The notes under the pieces are model-generated. The model was not told the origin of the DNA. It did not search any database and saw only the letters and a program-made list of their open reading frames with translations. The translations under genes and the position numbers were made by a program. A DNA stretch of 64,000 bases from Candidatus Omnitrophota bacterium (GTDB taxonomy: Bacteria; Omnitrophota; Gorgyraeia; Gygaellales; Profunditerraquicolaceae): contig JBAZTA010000002.1 of the NCBI GenBank assembly GCA_041662125.1, forward strand, positions 140,154-204,153. Reading direction: 5' to 3'. Below are positions 22,460 through 64,000 of the stretch, in pieces. Position 1 is the stretch's first letter, and each line of letters opens with the position of its first letter.

Positions 22460-22520
22460 AATTGGTATATCCGGCGTCTCTGTGAAAGATGTTCCGGATA
22501 TCTATGCAGGAGATACGGTT

Positions 22521-46395: not shown

Positions 46396-46848
46396 ATGAC
46401 TGAAGTTTCTTTGTTGGAATTTGCCGATAAGTTAAATGCTCTTATGCCGGTCATTATGCGGGAATTCGCTAAGCGGCAGGCTAATGAATTGTATAAAGGA
46501 AAGATCACGCTGCCGCAATTTTTGATTTTGGATATTATCCATAAAGAAGGTGAATCAAAGATGACTGATCTGGCTCATCTTATGGATGTTTCTACCGCGG
46601 CAATGACCGGGATCGTTAATCGTTTAGTGAAAGGCGGCTATGTCGTGCGTAAGTATGATGCCCAGGACCGCCGTATTATAAAAGTGATCTTGAGCTCTAA
46701 AGGCAATGAATTGGTAAAGAAAACTTCAGAGCAGCGCCGGCAAATGGCCATTAAAATATTCGGCAAGATATCAGAATCTGACCGGCGGGACCATCTGCGG
46801 ATACTCGGACAGATACGCGATATTCTCCTGCAGGAAAAAGAGGGTTAA
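46396..46848 (+). CDS. MarR-family transcriptional regulator
   Basis: ITLPQFLILDIIHKEGESKMTDLAHLMDVSTAAMTGIVNRLVKGGYV is a MarR wHTH. Confidence 0.8.
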   Translation: MTEVSLLEFADKLNALMPVIMREFAKRQANELYKGKITLPQFLILDIIHKEGESKMTDLAHLMDVSTAAMTGIVNRLVKGGYVVRKYDAQDRRIIKVILSSKGNELVKKTSEQRRQMAIKIFGKISESDRRDHLRILGQIRDILLQEKEG

Positions 46849-46849
46849 A

Positions 46850-48112: not shown

Positions 48113-48114
48113 GA

Positions 48115-52136: not shown

Positions 52137-52157
52137 TACCGGTAAAGCGAGGCATTT

Positions 52158-52448
52158 ATGAAAATGGTGATGGTTGTTTATAATGAGGCTGTTGATGCTG
52201 AGGTCATGGAAGTCCTGGGGAGTTGCGCGATGAAGAATTATACCAAAGTTATGGGTGTTTTTGGTAAAGGCAGCACTTCGGGAACACATGGCGGAGATGA
52301 TATTTGGCCCGGCAGGAATAATATACTTTATGTTGCCTGTGATGATAAACAGGCAAAGCAGATGGTTTCATGCGTAAAAGAATTAAGGAAAAGCCTTGGT
52401 AAAGAAGGTGTTAAGGCATTCCTCCTGCCTCTGGAAGAAATGACCTGA
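52158..52448 (+). CDS. small PII-like (GlnB-fold-like) protein, hypothetical
   Basis: It is 96 aa with a betaalphabeta-like pattern (MVMVVYNEAVDAEVMEVL...ILYVACDD). It lies immediately downstream of the RND pump. Confidence 0.35.
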   Translation: MKMVMVVYNEAVDAEVMEVLGSCAMKNYTKVMGVFGKGSTSGTHGGDDIWPGRNNILYVACDDKQAKQMVSCVKELRKSLGKEGVKAFLLPLEEMT

Positions 52449-52996: not shown

Positions 52997-53037
52997 GAAG
53001 TTTCTTTATACTATATCAGCGTGCATCAGAAGGAGTA

Positions 53038-53322: not shown

Positions 53323-53478
53323 AGCCCTTAAGGTATCTTTTTTAGTCCCGCAGTAATTCCTTTTAAGAGAGCAGATGTGCGCGTTTACACTTGACAAAAA
53401 ACAATTTGATTATAAAATATGAGGAAATAATATAGTAAAATTTTACTATTACGTGGGGTTCTCAGGGGTGTTTGAACT

Positions 53479-53742
53479 ATGGAATGGGAAGCGCAGATAC
53501 AGGAAAAATTTATCAGTATTATTGTAAAATTGCCTGTTTTTCACCGGCATATCGCTGAGAGTGCGGTAAGAAAAAAAGCAGAAGAGAACGCGATCACTCG
53601 TCAATCTGCTGTGGTGCAGGAGCATGATGTGATCAGTGCTTTCTTTTCCGATGTTCCCACGCCTTTTTACAGTATGATGGTGCGGTTATTAGAGCAGGCA
53701 GGCCTTGATTATAAGAAATACGGTTTTCCGAAGACAAAATAA
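53479..53742 (+). CDS. small protein with a PCP_red-like (protochlorophyllide reductase subunit C-terminal-like) domain, hypothetical
   Basis: WEAQIQEKFISIIVKLPVFHRHIAESAVRKKAEENA resembles the WxxEAxxxLxxIPxFVR consensus. A TTGACA-containing promoter-like sequence lies upstream at about 53391. Confidence 0.3.
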   Translation: MEWEAQIQEKFISIIVKLPVFHRHIAESAVRKKAEENAITRQSAVVQEHDVISAFFSDVPTPFYSMMVRLLEQAGLDYKKYGFPKTK

Positions 53743-53765: not shown

Positions 53766-54776
53766 ATGAAAATAGCAATTATCGGCGGCGGGGCAATTGG
53801 AGGTTTAATAGCGGGATATTTAAAATTTAAAGGTGAAATGGCCTCTTTAATTGTCCGCCCTGAACAGGCCAATGCAATACGGGATAATGGTTTAACCGTG
53901 ACAGGTACGCGGGGCAATATTAAGGTCACTGTCGATGTTTTCGAGAGTTTGCAGGAAACTTTTGATTTGGTAATTTTGACGGTCAAAACACAGGATATAG
54001 TGAAGACAATTAAGCAGAACCTTAAATTTCTGAAAAACAGCACTATCCTGACTATCCAGAATGGTGTCCAGGCGGATATTCTTGTCGCCGAATTGGTGCC
54101 GCGGGAACATATTATCTCAAGTATTGTCATGTTTGGCGCGACCTACGTTGCCCCTGCCCATGTCGCGCAAAATTTTGAAGGCCCCTGGGTTATCGGCAGG
54201 CTTTCCGGTAAACAGGACCAAATACTTCAGGAAGTCTTTCATCTTTTAAAAAAAATGTTTCCTATGGTCATCGGCGAAGATGTCGTAGCAATGAAGTATC
54301 TCAAGATCTTTCTTAACGCGAATAACTGCCTGCCGGCGATATTAGGGATCAGTATTCAAGAAGCTTTTGCCGATATAGAAATAAGCCGGCTTGCAATTAC
54401 CATATGGCGTGAGGGATTGGAAGTTTTTACTCAGGCAGGCATAAAGATGGCTGGTTTGCCTGATTTTCCGGTTGAACGCCTAAAAAGTTTAACTTCGATG
54501 CCGTTGGTTGAATCTTCCAGGATCATGTCTGAAATAATGATTAATTTGAGCAAGGAACCGCTCTATGGTTCCATTCTGCAGAGTATCAAGAGAAACAGGC
54601 CTACAGAAATTGATTATATTAATGGAGAATATGTGCGTGTTGCCCGTAATAAAAAGCTACAGGCTCCCCTGAATGAAAGATTGGTTGAAATGGTGCATTT
54701 GGTTGAACGTACCGGAAAATTCTTTAGTAAGCATCATTTGCTCTCTGATACAAAGAAGTACATCAAGGTCCCGTAA
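53766..54776 (+). CDS. 2-dehydropantoate 2-reductase-family (PanE/ApbA-like) NAD(P)-dependent oxidoreductase
   Basis: The Rossmann motif is MKIAIIGGGAIGG, and FDLVILTVKTQD is present. Confidence 0.75.
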   Translation: MKIAIIGGGAIGGLIAGYLKFKGEMASLIVRPEQANAIRDNGLTVTGTRGNIKVTVDVFESLQETFDLVILTVKTQDIVKTIKQNLKFLKNSTILTIQNGVQADILVAELVPREHIISSIVMFGATYVAPAHVAQNFEGPWVIGRLSGKQDQILQEVFHLLKKMFPMVIGEDVVAMKYLKIFLNANNCLPAILGISIQEAFADIEISRLAITIWREGLEVFTQAGIKMAGLPDFPVERLKSLTSMPLVESSRIMSEIMINLSKEPLYGSILQSIKRNRPTEIDYINGEYVRVARNKKLQAPLNERLVEMVHLVERTGKFFSKHHLLSDTKKYIKVP

Positions 54777-54781
54777 ATTCC

Positions 54782-55387
54782 ATGATACAATCTCCGTTCC
54801 CAAAGTTAAAATTGACTGTCCAAAATGTTTATGGTGAATGTTATCACGGGTATAAAACCGGTGATGAGCTCATTTTAGAGGATTTTACGCATCCTCCGAA
54901 ACATTTTTGTCTGGGATTAGCGCACGCTCTTTTTCCGGTGATCTATGCTTTGAGTTTCGGCGCGAAGTTCCCGTTTATGGAAAATCAACGTTCGCTTTTG
55001 GTAACCTGCCCAGATGGAGGCAAGTTGGAATTCAAAGCGGAAATCCTGGATAAAGAAGGAAACGTTGAGTCGATCCCGAGAGATTTGCAGCATAAAGGGC
55101 CGAATCCGAAGAAGATGGTTATTGAAGTAGTGAAAGCTCCGGGGAAATGTACGTTCGGATATAAGGTTGGTGATACCTGGGAAACTGTTGGATTAAAATG
55201 TATCCCGGGATTTTGCGGGGCCGCGTTTCATACGGCGTTTCCGGCGCTTTTCGCGCTTAATTTCGGCGCCAAATTCTCATTTATGAAGAATCCGGATTCA
55301 ATCAATACGGTTACTTGTCCTGATGGCGGTAGTATCGTTTTTGAGGTCAGAAGAGTAGAGGAAACAAAGCCGCCAGAGTGTAAATGA
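54782..55387 (+). CDS. tandem-repeat Cys/His-rich protein (2 x about 90 aa; TIGR04076-like)
   Basis: Both repeats share CxxGYKxGD...FCxxAxHxxFPxxxALxFGAKFxFMxNxxSxxxVTCPDGG. Repeat 1 is GECYHGYKTGD...TCPDGGKLEF and repeat 2 is GKCTFGYKVGD...TCPDGGSIVF. Confidence 0.45.
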   Translation: MIQSPFPKLKLTVQNVYGECYHGYKTGDELILEDFTHPPKHFCLGLAHALFPVIYALSFGAKFPFMENQRSLLVTCPDGGKLEFKAEILDKEGNVESIPRDLQHKGPNPKKMVIEVVKAPGKCTFGYKVGDTWETVGLKCIPGFCGAAFHTAFPALFALNFGAKFSFMKNPDSINTVTCPDGGSIVFEVRRVEETKPPECK

Positions 55388-56652
55388 AAACTATGGAAAA
55401 ACGACGCGTAGTTATAACGGGCATAGGTGTTATTTCACCCAACGGCATTGGCAAAGAAAATGCCTGGAAGGCATTTATCTCGGGTAAATCAGGCATTAAG
55501 AAAGTGGAAGATTTTGATGTTTCTGTTTTTAATACCAAGATCGCCGCGCAGGTCAAAGATTTTGACCCTTTCGCGCTGGGTTTAACGCACGATGAAGCAG
55601 TGCGTATGGACCGGTATGTGCAATTCGGGGTGGTCGCGGCAAATATGGCGGTTAAGGACAGTAAACTTGATTTTTCGCGGGAAGACCCTGAACGCGTCGG
55701 GGTTTGCCTGGCAAACGCTATTTGCGGCACCAAGTATATGGAAGAAGAATTCGCCCTGGTGACGGATAATGGTAAGAAACCGATTAATCCCGCTTTGGTA
55801 CGGCCTGACCTTTATGACGCGGCAATGTTTAATACTCCCTCAATAGAAATATCCTCGAAATACGGCTTGCGCGGCATATGTGATACGTTGTCTACCGGCT
55901 GTACCGCAGGGACCGATTCCTTAGGGTTTGCTTTAGAGACGATACAGGACGGCCAGCACGATATTATGATCGCCGGGGCAGCGGAAGCGCCTCTGACGCC
56001 GATCACCTTTGGTGCTTTTGATGTCGTAAACGTTTTATCAACGCTCAATGATAATCCTGAAGCAGCAAGCCGCCCTTTTGATAACAAGCGTAACGGCTTT
56101 GTTTTATCAGAAGGCGCGGGTATTTTGATATTAGAGGAACTCAGGCATGCGTTAAAACGTAATGCGACGATTTATTGCGAGGTCCTGGGGTTTGGCACCA
56201 GTTGTAACGCTTTTCATATGACTGATCTCCCCGGGGATGGGACGGCAATGGCTCAGTGCATTAGATTAGCGCTTCTTGATTCGCACGTTAAACCTGAGCA
56301 GATAGATTATATTAACGCGCATGGTTCATCGACGCGCATGAATGATATATTTGAGACAAGTGCTTATAAAATGATTTTCGGCGATTATGCGTATAAATTA
56401 CCTATCAGCTCTCTTAAATCGATGTTCGGCCATCCCTTGGCCGCGGCAAACGCGGTTGAACTTACCATTTGCGCGATGATCTTTCAAAACCACATCCTTC
56501 CTCCGACGATAAACCAGGAGGAAAAAGACCCGTTGTGCGATCTCGATTATATTCCCAACGTCGCGCGCCAGAAAAAAGTCAAAACCATCATTAAAACAAG
56601 CAGCGGTTTTTCAGGGATACATTCTTCTTTAGTCTTGAGGCGGCTGGAATGA
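55384..56652 (+). CDS. beta-ketoacyl synthase (KS-alpha / FabF-like) with a complete Cys-His-His triad
   Basis: The active-site Cys is in TLSTGCTAGTDS. His residues are in FHMTD and INAHGSST. K and H are in KSMFGHPLAAANAVE. Confidence 0.85.
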   Translation: MKTMEKRRVVITGIGVISPNGIGKENAWKAFISGKSGIKKVEDFDVSVFNTKIAAQVKDFDPFALGLTHDEAVRMDRYVQFGVVAANMAVKDSKLDFSREDPERVGVCLANAICGTKYMEEEFALVTDNGKKPINPALVRPDLYDAAMFNTPSIEISSKYGLRGICDTLSTGCTAGTDSLGFALETIQDGQHDIMIAGAAEAPLTPITFGAFDVVNVLSTLNDNPEAASRPFDNKRNGFVLSEGAGILILEELRHALKRNATIYCEVLGFGTSCNAFHMTDLPGDGTAMAQCIRLALLDSHVKPEQIDYINAHGSSTRMNDIFETSAYKMIFGDYAYKLPISSLKSMFGHPLAAANAVELTICAMIFQNHILPPTINQEEKDPLCDLDYIPNVARQKKVKTIIKTSSGFSGIHSSLVLRRLE

Positions 56653-57878
56653 AAAGAATAGCTATTACCGGATTAGGTATTGTTGCTCCTTCTGGTATCG
56701 GAAAACGGCAGTTTTGGGCAAATATTAAATCAGGCAGGCCTTTTGTCAAAGCCATTACGCGTTTCGACGCCTCTCTCTATCCGTCGCGTGTTGCCGGCCA
56801 GATCGATGATCTGGAAAAATATTCGCATGTATCTGAACGGCTTTTAAAGAAGATCGATGTCTTTTCTCATATGGCTTTGATCGCTTCAGAAATGGCTTTG
56901 CAGGATGCCGGTATTGATCTTAAAAATGAGGATCCTAACCTTGTGGGGATATTCCTGGGGAATGCTTTGGGCGGTTGGTTATACGCGGAAACGGAATTGC
57001 GTGACCTTTATATCGAAGGCCGGGAAGGAGTTTCTCCCTATATGGCTTCAGCGTGGTTTCCGGCAGCTCCTCAGGGCCAGGTGTCCATTTATTACGGGAT
57101 CAAAGGCTTTAGTAAAACAGTTGTATCAGACAGAGCTAGTTCTTTGATGGCGTTAGGGTATGCGCGCACTACTTTAGCGAAGAAAAAACTTAATCTTATC
57201 TTGGCAGGAGGTATGGAGGCGCCGGTTACTCCCTATGCTTTATTATGTTGTAATACCTATGGCGCGCTTTCTACGCGTAATGATGATCCGAAAAGCGCCT
57301 ACCGGCCGTTTGATAAAAAACGTTCCGGCTTTGTGATCGCAGAAGGAGCGGGTATTGTTGTTATGGAAGACTTTGACCATGCTCAAGCCCGTAATGCTGC
57401 AATCGCGGCATATATTTGCGGTTTTGGTACGACCTGTGATGGCAAGGACAGGATCCATCCGGATTCAGACGGGAAACAATTAGCCCGCGCTATTACTATA
57501 GCGCTTACTGATGCCGGGGCTTTGCCTGAAGAAATAGATTATATCAGTTTAGACGGCCTTGCGGTCGATGAGTGGGATAATACGGAAATAGCGGCAATAA
57601 AGGAAGTTTTTGGCAAGCATGCCAAGGATATTCCTTTGAGTTGCCCGAAATCGATGTTTGGGAATCTGCTGGGTGCATCGGGCGCGGTTGATCTGATCAC
57701 CACGATTTTAAGTATGGAGCATGATTTAGTTCCTCCGACCATTAATTTGGATGAACCCTTTTACAGCGGATTAAATTTTGTCACGCAAAAAGCGCTCCCG
57801 CATAAGATCAAGAAAGCGTTGATCCTTTCCCGAGGGAGAGGCGGGATCAATTCGGCGTTAATAGTGGAGAAGCCGTAG
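56649..57878 (+). CDS. KS-beta / chain-length-factor-like ketosynthase homologue lacking the catalytic Cys and His
   Basis: It has the same fold and length as the KS but carries ...TVVSDRASS... at the Cys position, ISLDGLAV at the NAHG position and KSMFGNLLG (H to N). Its start is translationally coupled to the KS stop (ATGA overlap). Confidence 0.7.
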   Translation: MKRIAITGLGIVAPSGIGKRQFWANIKSGRPFVKAITRFDASLYPSRVAGQIDDLEKYSHVSERLLKKIDVFSHMALIASEMALQDAGIDLKNEDPNLVGIFLGNALGGWLYAETELRDLYIEGREGVSPYMASAWFPAAPQGQVSIYYGIKGFSKTVVSDRASSLMALGYARTTLAKKKLNLILAGGMEAPVTPYALLCCNTYGALSTRNDDPKSAYRPFDKKRSGFVIAEGAGIVVMEDFDHAQARNAAIAAYICGFGTTCDGKDRIHPDSDGKQLARAITIALTDAGALPEEIDYISLDGLAVDEWDNTEIAAIKEVFGKHAKDIPLSCPKSMFGNLLGASGAVDLITTILSMEHDLVPPTINLDEPFYSGLNFVTQKALPHKIKKALILSRGRGGINSALIVEKP

Positions 57879-57900
57879 GTATAATTCTAAAGGGGGTTTT

Positions 57901-59361
57901 ATGAAGATATTATTTGTCATGCCAAAAGTAGGTGCCTGGGCTACGCACGGGACACACCGTTCGCCAAATCAATTGTATGCGCACTGGGCAGCGTATGTGC
58001 GGGAAAGAGGATATGAGGATGTCTCGGTTATCGACGGAAAAGCAGATCAGATCCCTATGGACCAGCTGGTTGAGCAGGTTAAGGTTCGCAAGCCTGATAT
58101 TGTGGTGATGGGTGAACAGTTGCATGGCTACGGAGGCTATGGAGTGTTGCGTCATTTTAAAGAGGCAGCTATAGGGATTAAAAAGGCATTGCCTAAGACA
58201 AAAATAATTTTGGGCGGAATGTGGTACTCAGCCATGCCCGTGCCTACGTTAGAAGAGAATCCGGCAGTTGATTTTGTGGTCATGGGTGAAGAAGAATCCT
58301 TTGGGGATTTAATTGAGGCTATCGATAAAAAGAAAGACCTTAAAGATGTAGGCGGTGTTACTTCACGGATTGATGGCAAGATCGTGATGGGGCCGCATAA
58401 GCCGCTTTTAGAGGATCTCGATAAATTGCCTTTGCCGGCATATGATTTATTCCCGATGGATAAGTATGTGGGGCATACGTATTGGAAACCGTTTGTGGAT
58501 ATGGTGACTTCCCGGGGCTGTCCTTCAGCCTGCACCTTTTGTTACGAATGGGACCAGTTTGACCCGCGTTCTCCGTCTGACTTCTTGAAATGGCGCGCTA
58601 AAAGCCCTGAGCGGGTCATTGAAGAAATGGAATTGTTGCAGAATAAATACGGCGTTAAGGTAGTGGTGATTCAGGATGACAACTTCAATGTTGACCCTAA
58701 GCGTGTGGAGAAATTCTGCAATCTCAAGAAGCAGAAGAAGATCGATATCAAATGGGTTTCCCTTGGCCGGGCTATTGATTGGGTCAATTGTGAGTCGATT
58801 TTGCCGCTGATGAAGGAAACAGGCCTGTTTATGGGAGTTTTTGGTATTGAAGTAACCACGCAGTCAGAGCTTAAGAAAATCGCCAAGGGGATTACCCTCG
58901 ATCAGATCAAAAAGACCATTGAGATCCTGCGCAAAAACGATATTGCCATTGTCGCGGATATCATGATGGGTTTTGATTATGATACGGAAGCCATTATAAA
59001 ACAGCGCTTTGAGTTTACTGATCAGGTCGATCCGGATATCCTTTGGGTTGGTTACGTGACGCCCGCTCCGAATTCGCCTATGTGGAGGATCTCTTTAAAG
59101 AAGAACTGGGTTGACCCTAAGAAAGTTGATTTCAGCCAGTGGGACTTTTTACATCCGGTTATTCCGACGGATCATTTGACTATTGAGGATCTCGGCCGTT
59201 TGGGTTCATGGTGTATGCGGGAATTTTTCTCAAAACCCGGCCGCATCAATCGTATCATGGAGAGCAATTTTGATCCGTTGGCCAAACTCTGTTTCCAGGA
59301 TGTTATGGCAGGGGTGGGGAAATGGGAGGCAGGAGCGACAAAGGGAGAAGTTCATATTTAA
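57901..59361 (+). CDS. B12-binding radical SAM protein (class B rSAM, putative methyltransferase)
   Basis: The N-terminal cobalamin-binding Rossmann-like domain (DIVVMGEQLHGYGG...ILGGMW) is followed by the CxxxCxxC cluster SRGCPSACTFCYEW. Confidence 0.8.
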   Translation: MKILFVMPKVGAWATHGTHRSPNQLYAHWAAYVRERGYEDVSVIDGKADQIPMDQLVEQVKVRKPDIVVMGEQLHGYGGYGVLRHFKEAAIGIKKALPKTKIILGGMWYSAMPVPTLEENPAVDFVVMGEEESFGDLIEAIDKKKDLKDVGGVTSRIDGKIVMGPHKPLLEDLDKLPLPAYDLFPMDKYVGHTYWKPFVDMVTSRGCPSACTFCYEWDQFDPRSPSDFLKWRAKSPERVIEEMELLQNKYGVKVVVIQDDNFNVDPKRVEKFCNLKKQKKIDIKWVSLGRAIDWVNCESILPLMKETGLFMGVFGIEVTTQSELKKIAKGITLDQIKKTIEILRKNDIAIVADIMMGFDYDTEAIIKQRFEFTDQVDPDILWVGYVTPAPNSPMWRISLKKNWVDPKKVDFSQWDFLHPVIPTDHLTIEDLGRLGSWCMREFFSKPGRINRIMESNFDPLAKLCFQDVMAGVGKWEAGATKGEVHI

Positions 59362-59459
59362 GTTATTGCTCTCCTACGCTCATCGATAAGTAAAATGATG
59401 GTAGAGCTTCGGAGGAGTTTCGCTGGATAAAGTTTTAAGGTGCTCAAGGGGGGACAGGT

Positions 59460-59699
59460 ATGGATACAAAAGCTAAAATTAAAGATATTTTAGTCAAATT
59501 GTTACGCGTAAAAGTAGAAGAGCTTAAAGATAGCGTAACTTTGCAGGAAAGTATCGGGGTTGATTCTACTGAGATGGTTGAAGCAATCATTGCATTAGAG
59601 AAGGCGTTTAATACAAAAATAAGCACGAAGGAAATCTCTAAATTATCAACAATTGATGAGATTGAGCAGGTTATTCAATCGAAATTGTCAAAAGTTTAA
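59460..59699 (+). CDS. acyl carrier protein
   Basis: It is 79 aa. The phosphopantetheine-attachment region IGVDSTEMVEAIIALE is a DSx variant of DSL. Confidence 0.7.
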   Translation: MDTKAKIKDILVKLLRVKVEELKDSVTLQESIGVDSTEMVEAIIALEKAFNTKISTKEISKLSTIDEIEQVIQSKLSKV

Positions 59700-59726
59700 A
59701 GCTTTTTTACGCAAAGCTAAAACTAT

Positions 59727-60536
59727 ATGCAAATAATCGACTTAAGTTTGCCAATCGATGAAAAAGCTTTTGAAGTCCACCATGTGGATATTGAACGGGT
59801 AACTCATAAGTCCGGGGTAGAAAAGTTTAACCGCGTGATCATGGGCAAGGCTTTTTTAGGTAAGGTTAAGTATTTACTGGGCCAGCGTATAGTCAGCCCG
59901 GAAGATTTGCCTGATGGAGAATTCTTGTCTTTAGAAGTGGTCCATTCGCCGGTCCATGTCGGCACACATTTAGATTATTCCTTTCACTATGGTTCACAAT
60001 CAGAAGGGCGTCCTTCTAAAACAGCGGAAGAAATCCCTTTAGAATGGTGTTATTCTGATGGAGTGCGTTTGGATTTGACGCATAAAAAACCCGCAGATGT
60101 TATTACTGCCCACGATGTAGAGGCATGCCTTAATAAGATAAAATACACCCTCAAGCCTTTTGATATTGTCCTTTTTTATACGGGCGCGGATAAATTCTAT
60201 GGCGGGCCGAAGTATTTCTCAGACTATCCGGGAGTAGATGTTACTGCGATTGATTACTTACTTGATAGAGGTATTAAAATCTTTGGCGTTGATACTATGG
60301 GTATTGACCGGCCGTATAAATTCATGCTTAAAGAATTCCTGCAGGATAAAAAGAAGCATCCTTTGTATCCTGCGCATTTCTACGGGCGAAAGAGAGAGTT
60401 TATTCATATAGAGCGTCTCGCTAATTTAAAAGCATTGCCTGATTTCGGCTTTAAGATCAATTGTTTTCCGATAAAGATCAAATGCACCGGCGCTGCCTGG
60501 GCGCGGGTGGTAGCGGTAAGGAGCGACAATGATTAA
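59727..60536 (+). CDS. cyclase-family protein (PF04199-like; kynurenine-formamidase/polyketide-cyclase fold)
   Basis: HSPVHVGTHLDYSFHY matches the HxGTHxD metal-binding motif of the family. Confidence 0.65.
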   Translation: MQIIDLSLPIDEKAFEVHHVDIERVTHKSGVEKFNRVIMGKAFLGKVKYLLGQRIVSPEDLPDGEFLSLEVVHSPVHVGTHLDYSFHYGSQSEGRPSKTAEEIPLEWCYSDGVRLDLTHKKPADVITAHDVEACLNKIKYTLKPFDIVLFYTGADKFYGGPKYFSDYPGVDVTAIDYLLDRGIKIFGVDTMGIDRPYKFMLKEFLQDKKKHPLYPAHFYGRKREFIHIERLANLKALPDFGFKINCFPIKIKCTGAAWARVVAVRSDND

Positions 60537-60843
60537 ATCAGTGATTGGCGATTTAGATGCGATGATGGAGTTCCCCCGTGACGGGGTTTTTAGCAAGGTG
60601 CTGGTTAAGACCGATACTTCTAATTATACGCTGATGTGCCTGGCAAAGGGGAGTGATATTTCTGAGCATACTTCTACGCGTGAAGCGGCAGTTACCGTGT
60701 TAAAAGGCAAAGGCACTTTTGTTTTAAACGGTAAAAAAATTAAAATGAAGCCGGGTGTTTTTATCTTTATGCCCAAAAACGCGCCGCATTCATTAAGCGC
60801 GTCTGAAAATCTGGCGATAGTGTTGAGTTTGTTTGGAAAATAA
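60529..60843 (+). CDS. cupin-domain protein (TcmJ-like)
   Basis: The size and beta-rich composition fit a cupin, with ...HTSTREAAVTVLKGKGTFVLNGK...PKNAPHSLSA. The start overlaps the cyclase stop. Confidence 0.5.
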   Translation: MIKSVIGDLDAMMEFPRDGVFSKVLVKTDTSNYTLMCLAKGSDISEHTSTREAAVTVLKGKGTFVLNGKKIKMKPGVFIFMPKNAPHSLSASENLAIVLSLFGK

Positions 60844-60852
60844 GGAGATCAT

Positions 60853-61299
60853 ATGGGACATACGTGTAATTCAATTATTATCAATGCGCCGTACGAAAAA
60901 GTTTTTGCTATTTCAAACGATATCCCGCGCTGGACAGAGTTATTCGGCAGTGAATATCAAAAAGCTGAAGTAGTCAAGAAAGAGGGTAATAAAATTACCT
61001 TTCGCCTGACCGATGATGAAGGGAAATCCTGGCAATCCTGGAGGCTTTTATTTAAGGAAAAATGTTTTACCTATTCTGAGCGGGAAGAGCCGAAATTTCC
61101 GTTTAACTATATGAAGATTATCTGGCTTTATACTCCTCAAGAAGAAGGTATAGAATTGACCTGGATCCAGCATTTTCAGATGGATGATAAGGCGAAGTTC
61201 AATGATGAACAGGTGGAAGGGTTTATTAATAAGCATTCGAAGGAAAACCTTTTGATCTTTAAGAACGTGATAGAGCGTGAAGGTGCGCAGGGAACTTAA
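60853..61299 (+). CDS. SRPBCC (Bet v1-like) polyketide cyclase/aromatase-like protein
   Basis: It is 148 aa. The N-terminal CNSIIINAPYEKVFAISNDIPRWTELF is typical of Polyketide_cyc2/SRPBCC. Confidence 0.55.
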   Translation: MGHTCNSIIINAPYEKVFAISNDIPRWTELFGSEYQKAEVVKKEGNKITFRLTDDEGKSWQSWRLLFKEKCFTYSEREEPKFPFNYMKIIWLYTPQEEGIELTWIQHFQMDDKAKFNDEQVEGFINKHSKENLLIFKNVIEREGAQGT

Positions 61300-61312
61300 A
61301 GGGGGGTATATA

Positions 61313-62086
61313 ATGTCTAAGTTAAGGGGGAAGGCTGCAATAGTGACGGGTGCCAGCCGCGGTATCGGCAAGGCTTTGGCTTCAACCTGCGCTGATTTAG
61401 GGGTTAATCTTGTCATTGCCGCTCGTAATGAAGGGCCATTAAAGGAAACTGCGGATGAAATCCGGAAGAAATACAAGGTGGAGGTTTTACCGGTTGCCTG
61501 CGATGTTACTAAGTTTGAAGATTTGGAAAACCTGGTGAATAAGGCAAAAGAGAAATTTGGCACTATCGATATCCTGATCAATAATGCCGGGGTTTCCAGC
61601 CAGTCGCCTTTCGAGAAGCAGCCATTTGACGATTTCGAGAAATTGGTGCATACTAATTATCTAGGGTATGTGCGCTTGATTCGGCTGGTAATCAATGATA
61701 TGATTAAGAATAAGGCGGGAGCGATCATCAATATGGTTTCAGGGTCTACGCTCTGTGACCCGCTGCCCCGGAATTTTTTGGTGTATAGTTCGCTTAAAGT
61801 AGGGCTACGCGCTTTCTCTAAGGGATTGTTTTGGGAGATGCGCGACTATGGGATCAAAATCACCTCTATCCTGCCCGGTGTTACCGATACGGATTTAACC
61901 GGTAAGTTGACGGAAATAACCGCTGATACTTCCCGGCTTATGACGACAGAGGCGATTGAAAACGCGGTTCGGTTTGCTTTAACCGTGCCGGCGAATGTCT
62001 GTCCCTTGGAGATCGCGGTGATCAACCAGCAAACGCCGTGGACTAATCCCGTGATACCATTTAAACAGCAGCATCCGGGCAAGTAA
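61313..62086 (+). CDS. short-chain dehydrogenase/reductase (ketoreductase-like SDR)
   Basis: The cofactor motif is AAIVTGASRGIGKALA, NNAG is present, and the catalytic YxxxK is YSSLK. A GGGGGG SD precedes the ATG at 61313. Confidence 0.8.
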   Translation: MSKLRGKAAIVTGASRGIGKALASTCADLGVNLVIAARNEGPLKETADEIRKKYKVEVLPVACDVTKFEDLENLVNKAKEKFGTIDILINNAGVSSQSPFEKQPFDDFEKLVHTNYLGYVRLIRLVINDMIKNKAGAIINMVSGSTLCDPLPRNFLVYSSLKVGLRAFSKGLFWEMRDYGIKITSILPGVTDTDLTGKLTEITADTSRLMTTEAIENAVRFALTVPANVCPLEIAVINQQTPWTNPVIPFKQQHPGK

Positions 62087-62165
62087 GTTCAAACGCTTAT
62101 GAGAATATCAGGTTTTACGTATAGTAAGAAAACAGGATTAACAGGAAAAAACAAGGAGGAATAAT

Positions 62166-62774
62166 ATGAAGGTCCTGATTTTGAGTTTAATGTTTGCTCT
62201 TGGTGTAACTTCATTATGTTTGGCGCAGGAGAAAGCATTATTGATCGACGATTTTGAATGTGTTATTTCAGGAGGGCTTGAAGGGACGGTTGATTTCGGC
62301 ACAGGGGGTGATTCTAAATTAGAGGTTACGGCCTCAACCGATATTCAGCATGGCGGTAAGCAATCATTAAAATTGACCTACGATGCTGTCCCCGGCGGCT
62401 ATATGTGGGCGGCGCGGGGCTTTGAATTGGATTCGAAAAATACCGCCTGGCTTGTGAAAACACAAGATATCGACTGGGCTAAATATAACGCGATCTCTTT
62501 TTATATGTACGGCAGCAATTCAGGCGCATATATATGTTTTGATATAAAAGATAACGGGAAAGAAATTTGGCGCACTATGGCCAGTGATGATTTTACTGGA
62601 TGGAAGCAGATCGTATTGCCCTTTGCAGATTTCTACCCCAGGAAAGACTGGCAGCCTGACGCCGCAGATAAGAATGATACGTTGGATTTTCCGATAAAGA
62701 GTTACCAGTTTGAGCCGAAAGCTGAGGCAAAAGGTGTCTTGTGTATTGATGATGTTGAATTGGTCAAGAAATAA
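62166..62774 (+). CDS. secreted protein with a CIA30/CBM-like beta-sandwich domain, hypothetical
   Basis: A signal peptide (MKVLILSLMFALGVTSLCLAQE) is followed by aromatic-rich beta-strand sequence. Confidence 0.4.
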   Translation: MKVLILSLMFALGVTSLCLAQEKALLIDDFECVISGGLEGTVDFGTGGDSKLEVTASTDIQHGGKQSLKLTYDAVPGGYMWAARGFELDSKNTAWLVKTQDIDWAKYNAISFYMYGSNSGAYICFDIKDNGKEIWRTMASDDFTGWKQIVLPFADFYPRKDWQPDAADKNDTLDFPIKSYQFEPKAEAKGVLCIDDVELVKK

Positions 62775-62792: not shown

Positions 62793-63209
62793 ATGGATAA
62801 GCAGGATGTGCGGAATTTGAAAAAGCGGTATTTATTGTGGTTATATAAGACGACTAAAGATGCGTTTGATACATATGAGCGCAAGTTCACCCAGCTTGAG
62901 ATCGATGAATTTATTCTTGAGTCAATGGAGAATATCCTTAAAGGATCATATCTGCCCCGTGAGAAAAAGCCCCTGGAACAGTTTGTCAATGATTTCAGGG
63001 ATTATATCGTGGAAAAAGAAAAGGCCACCCTTGAGCTTAAATATAAGGGAAAGAAAGTGAATCCGCAGTTCATCTTTTTGGATTTAAAATTAGAGGCAAT
63101 AGAGAAGGCAATTGTAAAAGAGCTGGGGAAAGAAACGCTTAATGAGATCAAATCTCTCTATGAAGTGGAGATGATAGGGCGGATCTTAAAGAGTTCCAAA
63201 CAGCCGTAA
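62793..63209 (+). CDS. hypothetical protein
   Basis: The ORF has a plausible start and is charged and alpha-helical. No motif was recognised. Confidence 0.35.
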   Translation: MDKQDVRNLKKRYLLWLYKTTKDAFDTYERKFTQLEIDEFILESMENILKGSYLPREKKPLEQFVNDFRDYIVEKEKATLELKYKGKKVNPQFIFLDLKLEAIEKAIVKELGKETLNEIKSLYEVEMIGRILKSSKQP

Positions 63210-63255: not shown

Positions 63256-64000
63256 ATGATAATAGACAGCCATAGCCATTGGTTACCCGCTGAAATTATT
63301 AATAACGCGCATTTCTTCTCGCAAGCCTGGGGCGATATTGAGTCACAGCTTGCGATGATGGACCGTTTAGGGATCGATAAAGCTGTTTTAAGTTATCCAA
63401 CTACCGATGCGCATCTGAAATTAGGCAGTATCAGTGAGGTTACGTATGCCTTTAATAAAAATGTCGCGAAGATCCTGAAACGTTTCCCGGGTCGTTTTAT
63501 CGGCGCTGCGGTTCTTCCTATCGATAATGCTTCTGATATGCTTGATCAATTCAAGCGAGCTACCGAAGAATCGGGGTTTCAAGCGCTTTCATTTGCAAGC
63601 AGCTATAACGGCAGGTATCTTGACGATAAGCTTTTTATCCCTGTTTATGAAGAATCACAAAAGAAAAATATCCCGATTTTCGTCCATTCTCAGATAGTTA
63701 ATCCTATTGGTTATGAACGGGTTGGGGATCCGTTATTGACGCCGGTTATAGAATATGTTTTTGATACTACGATCTGTATCGGTAAACTTTTAATGTCAGA
63801 TGTATTGCGAGATTATCCGCAGGTTAAATTTATCTTTGCTTATTTTGGCGGGGTGATCTGCCACTTGTCTCATCGTTTTGACACGACCTATCAGATGTTG
63901 CGGGGTATCAATTTTGTTAAAGACCTGCAAGCAAATCCTTCAGAGTATTTAAAGAATATTTATGTTGATACAAGCGGAGATACCACTGCCGCTAATTTCC
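63256..64000 (+). CDS. amidohydrolase-2 (ACMSD-like metal-dependent hydrolase), truncated by the 3' end of the window
   Basis: The N-terminal metal ligands are MIIDSHSHWLP. HSQ and DTT blocks follow. The frame is still open at nt 64000. Confidence 0.65.
   Translation, partial: MIIDSHSHWLPAEIINNAHFFSQAWGDIESQLAMMDRLGIDKAVLSYPTTDAHLKLGSISEVTYAFNKNVAKILKRFPGRFIGAAVLPIDNASDMLDQFKRATEESGFQALSFASSYNGRYLDDKLFIPVYEESQKKNIPIFVHSQIVNPIGYERVGDPLLTPVIEYVFDTTICIGKLLMSDVLRDYPQVKFIFAYFGGVICHLSHRFDTTYQMLRGINFVKDLQANPSEYLKNIYVDTSGDTTAANF

What the first reader, a model, noticed from the sequence alone, without database searches (positions are those of the whole stretch)
54782..62086. Compact type II polyketide-synthase-like biosynthetic gene cluster
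Ten co-directional, tightly spaced or overlapping genes follow the PanE-like reductase. These are a tandem-repeat Cys/His protein, KS-alpha (Cys-His-His intact), KS-beta/CLF (catalytic residues lost) and a B12-radical SAM. They continue with ACP, a PF04199-type cyclase, a cupin, an SRPBCC aromatase/cyclase-like protein and an SDR ketoreductase. The set KS-alpha, CLF, ACP, ARO/CYC, cupin, cyclase and KR is the hallmark of aromatic type II PKS pathways. These are overwhelmingly actinobacterial and rare elsewhere. In this AT-leaning genome with Gram-negative envelope and efflux genes, the cluster suggests an undescribed aromatic polyketide or an unusual specialised lipid. An RND/TolC exporter lies 2-8 kb upstream.
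Basis: partly seen in the sequence, partly recalled or inferred. Interest (0 to 1): 0.85.

Follow-up and report, generated by a model that had tools for sequence, protein, structure and literature searches.

The report
Conserved anaerobe-type aromatic polyketide cluster
This is a real gene cluster for an aromatic polyketide, of the ancient kind known from anaerobes such as the clostrubin producer Clostridium beijerinckii, and it is kept almost unchanged in at least 80 uncultured Omnitrophota genomes together with enzymes that should work without oxygen.

Summary
All the genes named are present at the stated coordinates, and catalytic residues are as described.

- **Host:** a Candidatus Omnitrophota MAG.
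- **Conservation:** the cluster is syntenic in the 80 closest species-representative contigs. Core enzymes are 77-90% identical (median), against 52-67% for flanking genes.
- **Extent:** it runs beyond the finding, from a DUF2621-like gene (53479) to a LigW-like aromatic-acid decarboxylase homologue that runs off the window end.
- **Aromatic chemistry:** the SRPBCC protein matches only TcmN/WhiE-VI/ZhuI aromatase/cyclases among solved structures, and its pocket residues are invariant.
- **KS pair:** KS1 groups with type II KS-alpha rather than FabF, and KS2 groups with chain-length factors.
- **Closest named relative:** a C. beijerinckii type II PKS cluster, which I infer to be clostrubin's. 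It shares KS, CLF, PF04199 cyclase, TcmN-like cyclase, decarboxylase homologue and the TIGR04076 domain, there fused to the ACP.

So this is the "ancestral" KS-CLF-ACP-TcmN-OxyN architecture. The Omnitrophota extras are a BchE-like B12 radical-SAM enzyme with a DUF2621 partner, a free-standing tandem TIGR04076 protein, a PanE-like reductase and an SDR.

The cupin is accessory, and the SDR cannot be called a polyketide ketoreductase. The product is unknown. Verdict: a new variant of a known kind, of moderate-to-high interest.

The parts
53391..53418 (+). Best sigma-70-like promoter match (TTGACA-16-TAAAAT, 11/12), upstream of orf87. Candidate operon start.
   Evidence: It coincides with the upstream limit of conserved synteny. 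This is a consensus match only.
53479..53742 (+). orf87, a small DUF2621/PCP_red-like protein. Inferred partner of the B12 radical-SAM enzyme.
   Evidence: Weak Pfam hits: DUF2621 at 22 bits, PCP_red at 15 bits. Syntenic in 56 loci. In the divergent Omnitrophota locus L090 an orf87-like domain (46% identity) forms the C-terminus of the 575-aa B12 rSAM, a Rosetta-stone fusion. Also present in the Nitrospirota locus L097.
53766..54776 (+). PanE/ApbA-family NAD(P)H-dependent reductase. Either a cluster-linked reductase or housekeeping ketopantoate reductase.
   Evidence: Pfam ApbA + ApbA_C; TIGR00745 at 177 bits against a cutoff of 141. Always adjacent (57 loci), but only 52% median identity. Kept next to the TIGR04076 genes in L090 and L097. 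One database protein fuses ApbA to TIGR04076 (P0246; this may be an artefact).
54782..55387 (+). Tandem TIGR04076 protein with two Cys-rich domains. A recurrent accessory component of this PKS family; biochemical role unknown.
55393..56652 (+). KS-alpha, the condensing subunit (Cys170-His310-His347).
   Evidence: A 100%-identical 419-aa protein is annotated from an Omnitrophota MAG.
56649..57878 (+). KS-beta / chain-length factor. Catalytic Cys->Arg162, His->Asp302, His->Asn339.
   Evidence: Arg at the Cys position is shared with the Azospirillum, Bacillus, Bacillota-MAG, C. beijerinckii and Rhizonema CLFs. The two Streptomyces CLFs compared have Gln.
57901..59361 (+). B12-binding radical-SAM enzyme of the BchE/HpnJ-like group. 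Inferred oxygen-independent tailoring step (C-methylation or oxidation/cyclisation).
   Evidence: Pfam B12-binding + Radical_SAM. Best NCBIfam hit is BchE at 212 bits (cutoff 481); TIGR04072 scores only 73 (cutoff 360). CxxxCxxC is invariant in 81 loci. It is the most conserved gene, at 90% median identity. It is remote from solved structures (AprD4 58 bits) and from plasmid-borne BchE/HpnJ (28% or less).
59460..59699 (+). Acyl carrier protein (Ser36 in the DS motif).
   Evidence: PP-binding at 37.8 bits. Ser is invariant in 79 loci.
59727..60536 (+). PF04199 ('OxyN-type') metal-dependent cyclase.
   Evidence: Pfam Cyclase at 103 bits. The HxGTHxD..H motif is invariant. It is 45-49% identical to the cyclases in the B. 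bombysepticus, Bacillota-MAG, C. beijerinckii and Nitrospirota type II PKS clusters.
60529..60843 (+). Small cupin_2 protein. An accessory, non-core gene.
   Evidence: Pfam Cupin_2 at 46 bits. Present in only 11 of about 76 related loci.
60853..61299 (+). Monodomain TcmN-type aromatase/cyclase (SRPBCC).
   Evidence: The only significant PDB hits are TcmN ARO/CYC (83 bits), WhiE-ORFVI and ZhuI. The residues aligning to TcmN pocket positions that I recalled from memory (W28, F32, Y35, W63, R69, M91, W95, Q110, N136) are present and invariant in 70-72 orthologues.
61313..62086 (+). Classical SDR oxidoreductase. Tailoring reductase of unspecified substrate.
   Evidence: adh_short at 177 bits. The TGxxxGxG and S-Y-K motifs are conserved. 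85% median identity. Best PDB hits are generic, and actinorhodin KR is not among the 20 hits at E<=1e-25. In most relatives an MFS transporter gene sits just upstream of it; that gene is absent here.
62166..62774 (+). Secreted CBM_11-like protein. A variable insert, probably unrelated.
   Evidence: Pfam CBM_11 at 92 bits. Present in about half of the loci at 56% median identity. It has its own promoter-like site at 62138-62165.
62793..63209 (+). orf138, a conserved hypothetical protein in cluster synteny.
   Evidence: No family hit. Syntenic in 53 loci at 60% median identity.
63256..64000 (+). Amidohydro_2 (ACMSD/LigW-type) non-oxidative aromatic-acid decarboxylase homologue, cut by the window end.
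   Evidence: Lies directly after orf138 in 47 of 49 loci, at 73% median identity. The full-length L001 orthologue hits Pfam Amidohydro_2 at 114 bits. Its best PDB hits are 5-carboxyvanillate decarboxylase LigW (92 bits), gamma-resorcylate decarboxylase and ACMSD. A 35%-identical homologue lies in the C. beijerinckii cluster.
46396..52448 (+). MarR regulator, TolC-like OEP, RND adaptor, RND pump and a P-II-like protein. A possible exporter; linkage is unproven.
   Evidence: Pfam MarR and P-II. The same gene set with Pfam OEP/RND/ACR_tran lies upstream in L001. RND is 67% median identity across 14 loci.

Best explanation
The region is the Omnitrophota version of the 'ancestral', non-actinomycete aromatic type II polyketide synthase (architecture KS-CLF-ACP-TcmN-OxyN).

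**Assembly (inferred from the families).** KS-alpha (Cys-His-His) paired with a catalytically dead CLF builds a poly-beta-keto chain on the discrete ACP from malonyl units. An AccA gene is in the window. Malonyl transferase and PPTase would be supplied from elsewhere, as is common for type II PKSs.

**Cyclisation (inferred).** The monodomain TcmN-type aromatase/cyclase folds and aromatises the first ring of the unreduced chain. The PF04199 cyclase closes further rings.

**Tailoring (inferred).** The LigW-like Amidohydro_2 enzyme removes the terminal carboxyl. The SDR, and possibly the PanE-like reductase, reduce carbonyls. The BchE-like B12 radical-SAM enzyme, working with the small DUF2621 protein, performs an oxygen-independent step. 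This could be C-methylation or a hydroxylation/ring-forming oxidation. It would stand in for the oxygenases and SAM methyltransferases found in aerobic relatives.

**TIGR04076.** The tandem protein is an integral accessory of the minimal PKS, because relatives fuse this domain to the ACP. I suggest it is a Cys-ligated metal or cofactor domain that docks or escorts the ACP-bound intermediate.

**Export and role.** Most relatives carry an in-cluster MFS gene; this genome lacks it and has an RND/TolC set upstream. The product is probably a small polycyclic phenol, anthrone or quinone. Its strong conservation suggests a physiological role, such as redox or oxygen protection as reported for clostrubin, rather than a strain-specific antibiotic.

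**Shown versus inferred.** Shown: gene content, residues, homologies, synteny and fusions. Inferred: the order of steps, the rSAM chemistry, the TIGR04076 role, and the product and its function.
For: - **Domains and residues:**
- **KS1 nearer KS-alpha than FabF:** PDB scores are act KS-alpha 384 and AntD 376, against FabF 350 or less. Against plasmids, type II PKS KS score 372-427 bits and Bacillus FabF 332-350. The KS-alpha clade has 76% bootstrap.
- **KS2 among CLFs:** an 87% bootstrap CLF clade in the 15-sequence tree, but only 23% for the whole CLF clade once 25 sequences are included. The group of Omnitrophota plus a Nitrospirota CLF has 100%.
- **SRPBCC protein:** it hits only TcmN/WhiE-VI/ZhuI in the PDB, and its pocket residues are invariant.
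- **Shared module with the C. beijerinckii cluster:** KS 46%, CLF 44%, TIGR04076 40-46%, PF04199 cyclase 49%, SRPBCC 40%, Amidohydro_2 35%. Similar sharing is seen with a Bacillota MAG, a B. bombysepticus plasmid and a Nitrospirota MAG.
- **Literature:** the KS-CLF-ACP-TcmN-OxyN architecture is described as ancestral; clostrubin, wexrubicin and dendrubin come from anaerobes; terminal decarboxylation has been proposed (PMC7693217).
- **No oxygenase here:** the cluster has no oxygenase gene, whereas the Azospirillum relative has four ABM monooxygenases and the Bacillus relative has an FAD oxidoreductase and SAM methyltransferases.
- **Decarboxylase homologue:**
- **orf87-rSAM fusion:**
- **TIGR04076-ACP fusions:**
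- **Conservation:** medians are rSAM 90, SDR 85, TIGR04076 81.5, KS1 80, SRPBCC 79, KS2 77 and CYC 76%. Flanking genes are RND 67, orf87 63 and PanE 52%.
- **Native to the genome:** there is no GC anomaly.
Against: - No product or expression data exist.
- By NCBIfam, KS1 and KS2 score best against fabF models. KS1 passes the PRK07314 subfamily cutoff (452.7 vs 387); KS2, at 359 bits, does not. KS2's best PDB hits are FabFs (292 bits) rather than act CLF (264).
- Deep nodes of my NJ trees have only 23-76% bootstrap, taxon sampling is small, and I have no ML tree.
- The CLF has Arg instead of the Gln used for decarboxylative priming, and it also lacks both His. Chain initiation is therefore unexplained.
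- No malonyl transferase or PPTase is in the window.
- The SDR and the PanE-like protein have no specific link to polyketide reductases.
- The rSAM is remote from every characterised enzyme, so its chemistry is a guess.
- A 57%-identical tandem TIGR04076 gene occurs outside any PKS cluster in another Omnitrophota MAG.
- That the C. beijerinckii locus is the clostrubin (clr) cluster is my inference, not something I checked against an accession.
Confidence: 0.72

Rival explanations
1. The chemistry is the same (an aromatic type II polyketide), but the product is a primary-metabolism-like molecule. It could be a redox-active cofactor or quinone surrogate, or the aromatic head-group precursor of a prenylated quinone. 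It would be needed by most members of the lineage and would not be an exported antibiotic.
For: - The core enzymes are very strongly conserved relative to the flanks, and synteny is strict across the 80 closest species-level contigs.
- All catalytic residues are invariant.
- The in-cluster MFS transporter is dispensable: it is absent in this window although close relatives have it.
- The main Omnitrophota survey reports polyprenyltransferase without chorismate lyase, meaning an unknown source of the aromatic head group in some classes. It also reports patchy quinone pathways (PMC10066038).
- Clostrubin is reported to confer oxygen tolerance on its anaerobic producer (PMC8868522).
Against: - No prenyltransferase is linked to the cluster. 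The only UbiA-like hit is weak and lies 17 kb away.
- TcmN-type cyclases act on long chains that give polycyclic products, not on simple benzoates.
- Most relatives do carry an MFS gene, and an RND/TolC set lies nearby.
- I could not determine what fraction of Omnitrophota genomes carry the cluster.
Confidence: 0.25
2. It is a specialised lipid pathway. A FabF-like KS pair plus a B12 radical-SAM enzyme would make an unusual fatty-acid-derived membrane lipid, of the sort antiSMASH labels 'ladderane'.
For: - The best NCBIfam hits of both KS proteins are fabF models.
- KS2's best PDB hits are FabFs.
- B12 radical-SAM enzymes accompany KS genes in ladderane-type clusters, and 'ladderane' BGCs have been called in Omnitrophota MAGs (PMC9902471).
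- High conservation would suit a membrane component.
Against: - The conserved unit has no dehydratase (hotdog) or enoyl reductase.
- The rSAM scores 73 bits against the ladderane-associated TIGR04072 model, whose cutoff is 360.
- The unit contains a TcmN-type aromatase/cyclase with an intact pocket, a PF04199 cyclase and an aromatic-acid decarboxylase homologue.
- The nearest named relatives are aromatic type II PKS clusters.
Confidence: 0.07
3. It is a non-aromatic type II PKS-like system. The product would be a polyene or aryl-polyene pigment, or a small carbocycle of the cispentacin type.
For: - KS/CLF heterodimers also make polyenes and cispentacin (PMC10698177, listed).
- The CLF lacks the Gln typical of aromatic systems.
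- There is a weak NCBIfam hit to AmcF (162 bits).
Against: - AmcF scores 162 bits against a cutoff of 325.
- Other KS-family models score far below their cutoffs: PRK09185 at 175 vs 407 and PRK06147 at 35 vs 342. From memory I associate these two with aryl-polyene clusters; the tool output does not say so.
- The ishigamide KS Iga11 scores 227 bits, against 384 for act KS-alpha.
- There is no hotdog dehydratase.
- TcmN-type and OxyN-type cyclases are present.
Confidence: 0.04

Closest known systems
Clostridium beijerinckii type II PKS cluster (inferred to be the clostrubin clr cluster) and its Bacillota MAG relative
   Same: - Shares the KS-alpha (46% identity), Arg-type CLF (44%), PF04199 cyclase (49%), monodomain TcmN-like cyclase (40%), Amidohydro_2 decarboxylase homologue (35%) and TIGR04076 domain (40-46%).
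- Both hosts are anaerobes.
- Neither cluster contains an oxygenase.
   Different: - In Clostridium the TIGR04076 domain is fused to the ACP, and there is a second free copy. Here it is a free-standing tandem protein upstream of the KS.
- Clostridium adds KSIII, a second ACP, alpha/beta hydrolases, two PPTases, and CMD, DUF362 and DUF169 genes.
- Clostridium lacks the B12 radical-SAM enzyme, DUF2621, the PanE-like reductase and the SDR within 10 kb.
- The identification with clr rests on species and literature, not on an accession match.
'Ancestral' non-actinomycete type II PKSs with KS-CLF-ACP-TcmN-OxyN architecture (dendrubin den, AQ-256 ant, pyxidicycline pcy, wexrubicin wex; Hillenmeyer 2015 as cited in PMC7693217)
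   Same: - The core architecture is the same.
- KS1 scores 376 bits against Photorhabdus AntD.
- Terminal decarboxylation is proposed for den and pcy, and a decarboxylase homologue is conserved here.
   Different: - den, ant and pcy use a di-domain TcmN-TcmN cyclase. This cluster has the monomeric form, as in the clostrubin clade.
- None of those clusters is reported, in what I read, to contain a B12 radical-SAM enzyme or to name a TIGR04076 component.
- I did not place this cluster's CLF in a tree containing those reference sequences.
Actinobacterial aromatic type II PKSs (act, tcm, whiE)
   Same: - A KS-alpha/CLF/ACP minimal PKS, with act KS-alpha as the best PDB hit of KS1.
- A TcmN/WhiE-VI-type ARO/CYC.
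   Different: - The CLF has Arg, not Gln, at the active-site position and is only 34-36% identical to Streptomyces CLFs.
- There is no TcmI-type cyclase, no oxygenases and no act-type KR.
- The phylum and the oxygen regime are different.
BchE / HpnJ group of B12-dependent radical-SAM enzymes
   Same: - The domain order is the same (B12-binding then radical SAM).
- The best family hits are BchE (212 bits) and HpnJ (158 bits).
- Like BchE, the likely substrate is a planar aromatic molecule, and the partner domain resembles the PCP_red domain of protochlorophyllide reductase (weak).
   Different: - It scores far below both equivalog cutoffs (481 and 578).
- It is 24-28% identical to annotated BchE/HpnJ.
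- It sits in a polyketide context.
Catalogued KS-CLF pairs of 'Candidatus Omnitrophica' (PMC10132072)
   Same: Probably the same genes. That survey lists Omnitrophica among 14 phyla with KS-CLF pairs, and describes 'type II KS + type II FAS-like' pairings in non-actinobacteria.
   Different: In the text I read, the catalogue gives no cluster anatomy, conservation analysis, accessory genes or product prediction for them.

Membership tests
Aromatic type II PKS (minimal PKS KS-alpha/CLF/ACP) | KS-alpha with an intact Cys-His-His triad | tested here: met
   C170/H310/H347 are present and invariant in 67 orthologues.
Aromatic type II PKS (minimal PKS KS-alpha/CLF/ACP) | An adjacent KS paralogue (CLF) lacking the active-site Cys | tested here: met
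   R162/D302/N339 are invariant in 74-75 orthologues. There is a 4-nt overlap with KS1.
Aromatic type II PKS (minimal PKS KS-alpha/CLF/ACP) | Gln at the CLF active-site position ('KSQ', decarboxylative priming) | tested here: not met
   The position holds Arg, as in the Azospirillum, Bacillus, Bacillota-MAG, C. beijerinckii and Rhizonema CLFs. The two Streptomyces CLFs compared have Gln.
Aromatic type II PKS (minimal PKS KS-alpha/CLF/ACP) | A discrete ACP with the phosphopantetheine Ser | tested here: met
   PP-binding at 37.8 bits. Ser36 in the DS motif is invariant in 79 loci.
Aromatic type II PKS (minimal PKS KS-alpha/CLF/ACP) | The KS pair groups with type II PKS KS-alpha/CLF rather than FabF/FabB | tested here: met
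   Bit-score ranking. In the NJ tree the KS-alpha clade has 76% bootstrap; the Omnitrophota + Nitrospirota CLF group has 100% and sits among CLFs, whose overall clade has 23-87% support depending on sampling. Support is moderate and no ML tree was built.
Aromatic type II PKS (minimal PKS KS-alpha/CLF/ACP) | The product is a cyclised aromatic polyketide | not testable with these tools
   This needs expression and LC-MS/NMR.
Ancestral non-actinomycete type II PKS (KS-CLF-ACP-TcmN-OxyN) | A TcmN-type ARO/CYC | tested here: met
   The only significant PDB hits are TcmN, WhiE-VI and ZhuI, at 82-83 bits. Pocket residues are invariant.
Ancestral non-actinomycete type II PKS (KS-CLF-ACP-TcmN-OxyN) | An OxyN-type (PF04199) second cyclase | tested here: met
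   PF04199 at 103 bits. It is 45-49% identical to the cyclase at the same position in the Bacillus, Bacillota, Clostridium and Nitrospirota clusters. That OxyN belongs to PF04199 is from my own knowledge.
Ancestral non-actinomycete type II PKS (KS-CLF-ACP-TcmN-OxyN) | The closest relatives are non-actinomycete clusters | tested here: met
Type II fatty-acid synthase (housekeeping FabF) | Reaches the fabF equivalog cutoff; both KS active; fab partners (FabG/Z/I/D/H) adjacent | tested here: not met
   KS1 scores 467 bits against TIGR03150, below the 493.75 cutoff. KS2 is inactive. No fab genes are in the cluster.
Ladderane-type lipid cluster | A B12 radical-SAM enzyme of family TIGR04072 | tested here: not met
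   It scores 72.8 bits against a cutoff of 360.
Polyene / aryl-polyene type II PKS | A hotdog dehydratase in the cluster, and a KS close to the Iga/APE families | tested here: not met
   No dehydratase domain is present. Iga11 scores 227 bits against 384 for act KS-alpha. The KS models PRK09185 and PRK06147, which I link to aryl-polyene clusters from memory, score far below their cutoffs.
BchE (anaerobic Mg-protoporphyrin monomethyl ester cyclase) | Reaches the TIGR02026 equivalog cutoff | tested here: not met
   It scores 212 bits against a cutoff of 481.
TIGR04076 family | Reaches the family cutoff | tested here: met
   It scores 101 bits against a cutoff of 33, in two domains.

The most novel reading that the evidence does not exclude
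The TIGR04076 domain is a so far unrecognised, ancient accessory subunit of the ancestral type II PKSs. It occurs free-standing in tandem in Omnitrophota, as two genes in Nitrospirota, and fused to the ACP in Clostridium. It would dock or escort the ACP-bound chain. In Omnitrophota the pathway, completed by a BchE-like B12 radical-SAM/DUF2621 pair, would make a fully oxygen-independent aromatic polyketide. The lineage would keep that product under near-housekeeping constraint as a redox or oxygen-protective molecule.
Probability: 0.3. Interest if true: 0.8.

Novelty: new variant of a known kind. Interest (0 to 1): 0.62.

Why it matters
Aromatic type II polyketides are studied almost entirely in aerobic actinomycetes. 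Only a handful are known from anaerobes (PMC7693217). Three points make this cluster worth attention.

- **A deep, abundant branch.** It shows that the ancestral architecture is fixed and under unusually strong constraint in many genomes of an uncultured phylum of ultra-small bacteria. That argues for a physiological role, not a sporadic antibiotic.
- **Candidate anaerobic tailoring.** The B12 radical-SAM enzyme plus its DUF2621 partner offers a concrete candidate for how anaerobes decorate aromatic polyketides without O2. The dendrubin authors note that their cluster lacks the methyltransferase and oxygenase genes needed for such steps.
- **A testable accessory domain.** The recurrent link of the TIGR04076 domain to KS/CLF/ACP is a testable lead for a function-unknown family. 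It may also bear on the reported failure to obtain soluble den PKS proteins by heterologous expression, a connection I only suggest.

Tried and rejected
- **Exact look-ups:** look-ups of the window KS1 and of P0001 found no contig, so the source contig beyond 64 kb could not be read.
- **TIGR04076 literature:** two incidental mentions only.
- **TIGR04076 protein searches:** no PDB sequence hit, no PADLOC hit and no plasmid hit.
- **Saturated homologue searches:** searches with KS1 and TIGR04076x2 returned only near-identical Omnitrophota proteins. Distant relatives came only from the representative search and from re-querying with a Bacillota CLF.
- **SDR as an act-type ketoreductase:** rejected as unsupported.
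- **Cupin as a core component:** rejected, since it is in 11 of about 76 loci.
- **TIGR04076 as strictly a radical-SAM partner:** rejected. It does sit among B12 rSAMs in two unrelated loci. However, the Clostridium and Bacillota PKS clusters have it without any rSAM.
- **PNP_UDP_1 as futalosine hydrolase or MTA nucleosidase:** only generic nucleoside-phosphorylase hits.
- **RNA elements:** no riboswitch or other RNA element lies in or next to the cluster.
- **Papers:** the PKMiner paper and the dendrubin supplements gave nothing usable.
- **Chain length:** prediction from CLF gatekeeper residues was not attempted, because I had no reliable act/tcm numbering.

Full report
**1. Observation**

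The + strand of 53.4-64.0 kb carries a run of tightly spaced or overlapping ORFs. Pfam and NCBIfam identify them as listed here.

| Coordinates | Assignment |
|---|---|
| 53766-54776 | PanE/ApbA reductase |
| 54782-55387 | Two-domain TIGR04076 protein (101 bits, cutoff 33) |
| 55393-56652 | KS1 |
| 56649-57878 | KS2 |
| 57901-59361 | B12-binding + radical-SAM enzyme |
| 59460-59699 | ACP |
| 59727-60536 | PF04199 cyclase |
| 60529-60843 | Cupin_2 |
| 60853-61299 | SRPBCC/Polyketide_cyc protein |
| 61313-62086 | Classical SDR |

Alignment to E. coli FabF shows Cys-His-His intact in KS1. In KS2 those positions hold Arg, Asp and Asn. A MarR-OEP-adaptor-RND set lies at 46.4-52.1 kb. GC content shows no anomaly across the region. 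Minor corrections concern the start codons of KS1 and the SDR, and the gene count.

**2. Host and conservation**

KS1 is 100% identical to a protein annotated from a Candidatus Omnitrophota MAG. More than 120 database clusters are 81-96% identical to it, and those that carry an organism name are nearly all Omnitrophota.

I scanned one genome per GTDB species with the radical-SAM protein. This found 219 stretches that encode a relative. The best 80 lie on 80 distinct contigs. Most are labelled Omnitrophota, about a dozen carry a generic 'uncultured Planctomycetales' bin label, and all are 86-98% identical to the query.

tblastn of all window proteins against these loci shows one conserved order:

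orf87 - PanE - TIGR04076x2 - KS1 - KS2 - rSAM - ACP - cyclase - (cupin) - SRPBCC - (MFS) - SDR - (CBM11) - orf138 - Amidohydro_2

Median identities are as follows.

| Gene | Median identity (%) |
|---|---|
| rSAM | 90 |
| SDR | 85 |
| TIGR04076x2 | 81.5 |
| KS1 | 80 |
| SRPBCC | 79 |
| KS2 | 77 |
| Cyclase | 76 |
| Amidohydro_2 | 73 |
| RND | 67 |
| ACP | 66 |
| orf87 | 63 |
| orf138 | 60 |
| CBM11 | 56 |
| PanE | 52 |

The biosynthetic core is thus much more constrained than its surroundings. Every catalytic or ligand residue I checked is invariant across 62-81 orthologues, apart from one SDR position that reads Cys in 10 of 65.

- The cupin occurs in only 11 of about 76 loci.
- An MFS transporter gene lies between the SRPBCC and SDR genes in 46 loci, including the closest relatives, but is missing in this window.
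- The strongest promoter-like site in the region lies just upstream of orf87.
- A nucleoside-phosphorylase-family gene follows the amidohydrolase in 32 of 43 loci, at 85% median identity. It would lie beyond the window end.

**3. What kind of KS pair**

Among solved structures, KS1 scores best against actinorhodin KS-alpha (384 bits) and Photorhabdus AntD (376). These exceed all FabFs (350 or less) and far exceed the polyene KS Iga11 (227).

Against annotated plasmids, the best hits are KS genes of type II PKS clusters.

| Plasmid hit | Identity to KS1 | Bits |
|---|---|---|
| Azospirillum brasilense type II PKS cluster | 49% | 427 |
| Bacillus bombysepticus type II PKS cluster | 48% | 400 |
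| Streptomyces KS-alpha next to TcmI cyclases, aromatases and 'chain-length factor' genes | 44-46% | 372-397 |
| Bacillus fabF | about 44% | 332-350 |

KS2 taken alone scores slightly better against FabFs (292) than against act CLF (264). In NJ trees, however, it sits topologically among CLFs. The KS and CLF halves of the tree show the same branching order. In the 25-sequence tree the KS-alpha clade that excludes FabF has 76% bootstrap. The group of Omnitrophota plus a Nitrospirota CLF has 100%. The whole CLF clade has only 23% in that tree, although it had 87% in the smaller 15-sequence tree.

Five of the six non-actinobacterial CLFs compared outside the Omnitrophota lineage share Arg at the lost-Cys position; the Nitrospirota CLF has Ser there. 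The two Streptomyces CLFs compared have Gln.

The trees are small and distance-based, so I rate this placement as moderately supported.

**4. Evidence for aromatic chemistry**

- **SRPBCC protein.** It has exactly three kinds of significant PDB hits: TcmN ARO/CYC, WhiE-ORFVI and ZhuI, all at 82-83 bits, and nothing else. The residues aligning to the TcmN pocket positions, which I recalled from memory (W28, F32, Y35, W63, R69, M91, W95, Q110, N136), are all present and invariant in 70-72 orthologues.
- **PF04199 cyclase.** It keeps its HxGTHxD..H metal motif.
- **Amidohydro_2 gene.** Its best structural relatives are 5-carboxyvanillate decarboxylase LigW, gamma-resorcylate decarboxylase and ACMSD. 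This makes it a non-oxidative aromatic-acid decarboxylase homologue.
- **Absent functions.** The conserved unit has no dehydratase (hotdog), enoyl reductase, oxygenase or SAM methyltransferase.
- **SDR.** It is generic. Actinorhodin KR is not among its 20 PDB hits at E<=1e-25.

**5. Relatives outside the main Omnitrophota group**

A search of 1.84 billion representatives with the TIGR04076 protein found a small family, 309 representatives at E<=1e-3. Contexts of its members were informative.

- **L090, a divergent Omnitrophota MAG.** It holds the same genes in another order. The B12 rSAM sits at the end and carries a C-terminal orf87-like domain, which is a fusion linking orf87 to the rSAM. 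There is also an aldehyde:ferredoxin oxidoreductase and an acyl-CoA ligase.
- **L097, a Nitrospirota MAG.** It has DUF2621, AFOR, ApbA, two separate single-domain TIGR04076 genes orthologous to repeats 1 and 2, KS (61%), CLF (55%), ACP, cyclase and SRPBCC.
- **L094.** It has a PPTase, TIGR04076x2, KS and CLF.
- **TIGR04076-ACP fusions.** Two representatives are fusions of TIGR04076 with an ACP. One lies in a Bacillota MAG cluster: KS, CLF, TIGR04076-ACP, PF04199 cyclase, SRPBCC, PPTase and further genes.

Re-querying with that Bacillota CLF returned a 63%-identical Clostridium beijerinckii protein. Its locus contains the following:

- KS and CLF.
- A 175-aa TIGR04076-ACP fusion.
- A PF04199 cyclase and an SRPBCC cyclase.
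- PPTases.
- A second TIGR04076 gene.
- An Amidohydro_2 gene.
- A second ACP, hydrolases and a KSIII.

C. beijerinckii is the source of clostrubin, made by a type II PKS (PMC8868522; PMC7693217). I infer that this locus is that cluster, but I did not verify it by accession.

The dendrubin paper describes such non-actinomycete systems as 'ancestral'. It gives their architecture as KS-CLF-ACP-TcmN-OxyN. It places ClrB/WexB in a C20 clade with monomeric TcmN. It also proposes terminal decarboxylation, and it notes that the den cluster lacks methyltransferase and oxygenase genes.

**6. The accessory proteins**

*Radical-SAM enzyme.* It resembles BchE (212 bits) and HpnJ (158 bits) most, but is far below their cutoffs. 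It scores only 73 bits against the ladderane-associated TIGR04072 model, whose cutoff is 360. It is 28% identical or less to plasmid-borne BchE/HpnJ and remote from solved structures. Its partner orf87 gives weak DUF2621/PCP_red hits.

*TIGR04076.*
- Each repeat has an invariant Cys3His set. Three Cys are invariant family-wide.
- Multi-repeat family members lie among B12 radical-SAM genes in two unrelated loci.
- A 57%-identical tandem copy lies outside any PKS cluster in another Omnitrophota MAG.
- The firmest statement is that TIGR04076 is a recurrent accessory of this PKS family and is physically tied to the ACP in some members. Its biochemical role remains open.

**7. Interpretation**

The best explanation is an oxygen-independent aromatic type II polyketide pathway of the ancestral, clostrubin-like kind.

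- The minimal PKS plus the TcmN-type and OxyN-type cyclases would give a polycyclic phenol.
- The LigW-like enzyme would decarboxylate it.
- The SDR, and possibly the PanE-like protein, would reduce it.
- The BchE-like rSAM/DUF2621 pair would methylate or oxidise it without O2.

Relatives in aerobes carry ABM or FAD oxygenases and SAM methyltransferases in the corresponding roles.

Priming is unexplained. The CLF lacks Gln and both His, and this window has no KSIII or ligase.

The reported role of clostrubin in oxygen tolerance suggests a protective or redox function, as does the near-housekeeping conservation. This is inference.

**8. What is already known**

- KS-CLF pairs from 'Candidatus Omnitrophica' are listed in a 2023 catalogue, which offers no description of them in the text I read (PMC10132072).
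- 'Ladderane' BGC calls in Omnitrophota MAGs (PMC9902471) may or may not refer to this cluster.
- The main Omnitrophota genomics paper mentions no polyketide or ketoacyl synthase.
- I found no paper linking TIGR04076 to polyketide synthases.

**9. Verdict**

The finding is real and its interpretation is essentially right. It is not categorically new. It is a new, unusually conserved variant of the known ancestral type II PKS, carrying an anaerobic tailoring set and a recurrent accessory domain of unknown function.

The product, the rSAM chemistry, the TIGR04076 role and the fraction of Omnitrophota genomes that carry the cluster all remain undetermined.

Noticed in passing
window 31-17406 (+): A giant ORF of 5791 aa. 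Its first half carries Peptidase_M23, methyltransferase, NAD(P)HX-dehydratase-like (Carb_kinase), APH and cytidylyltransferase domains. A paper on huge proteins lists Omnitrophota in its hits (PMC11573180).
   Followed up: partly
window 23106-23187 (+): A c-di-GMP-I-GGC riboswitch (64 bits, above the gathering score) lies upstream of an ORF with no family hit (23284-23928). PilZ-domain proteins lie at 17385-18092 and 22482-22946.
   Followed up: no
window 26117-29230 (+) and 20301-21413 (-): A 1037-aa CheB-CheR-PAS fusion protein and a ComFB-CheR fusion. A groundwater metagenome study reports Omnitrophica bins as lacking chemotaxis and flagellar pathways (PMC5383146).
   Followed up: no
window 61299-61313, compared with L002-L004: This genome lacks the MFS transporter gene that sits between the SRPBCC and SDR genes in 46 related loci, including relatives 95-98% identical in the neighbouring genes. 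This looks like a recent deletion.
   Followed up: partly
window 52572-53322 (+): A CBS-domain ORF has an odd, low-complexity C-terminal third and overlaps the start of a thioredoxin-like ORF (53038-53322). This may be a frameshift or a mis-called end.
   Followed up: no
L091 (Logan SRR22387818) 228-15212: A four-repeat TIGR04076 protein lies among four B12-binding radical-SAM genes, one further radical-SAM gene, an SDR and two 910-aa proteins with no family hit. This is an unrelated, uncharacterised cluster. L092/L093 show a similar pairing with a DUF362-ferredoxin.
   Followed up: partly
L096 (C. beijerinckii GCA_013296325) 11260-11787: The protein after the CLF is a 175-aa fusion of a TIGR04076 domain and an ACP. 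The precomputed Pfam listing shows no domain for it. A second free TIGR04076 gene lies at 15656-15946.
   Followed up: yes
L001 19824-20573; L090 6476-7231: A nucleoside-phosphorylase-family (PNP_UDP_1) gene stays next to the cluster even where the gene order is rearranged, and it is 85% conserved. It may remove the 5'-deoxyadenosine by-product of the radical-SAM enzyme. Only generic family hits were found.
   Followed up: partly
L090 17366-18609; L097 376-2277: Aldehyde:ferredoxin oxidoreductase genes flank the divergent Omnitrophota and Nitrospirota versions of the cluster. Those versions show no Amidohydro_2 gene within the sequence in view. This may be an alternative way of processing the product's carboxyl group.
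   Followed up: no
window 36982-37914 (+): A weak UbiA-prenyltransferase-like ORF (29.7 bits, below the cutoff of 34.2) lies 17 kb upstream of the cluster.
   Followed up: no
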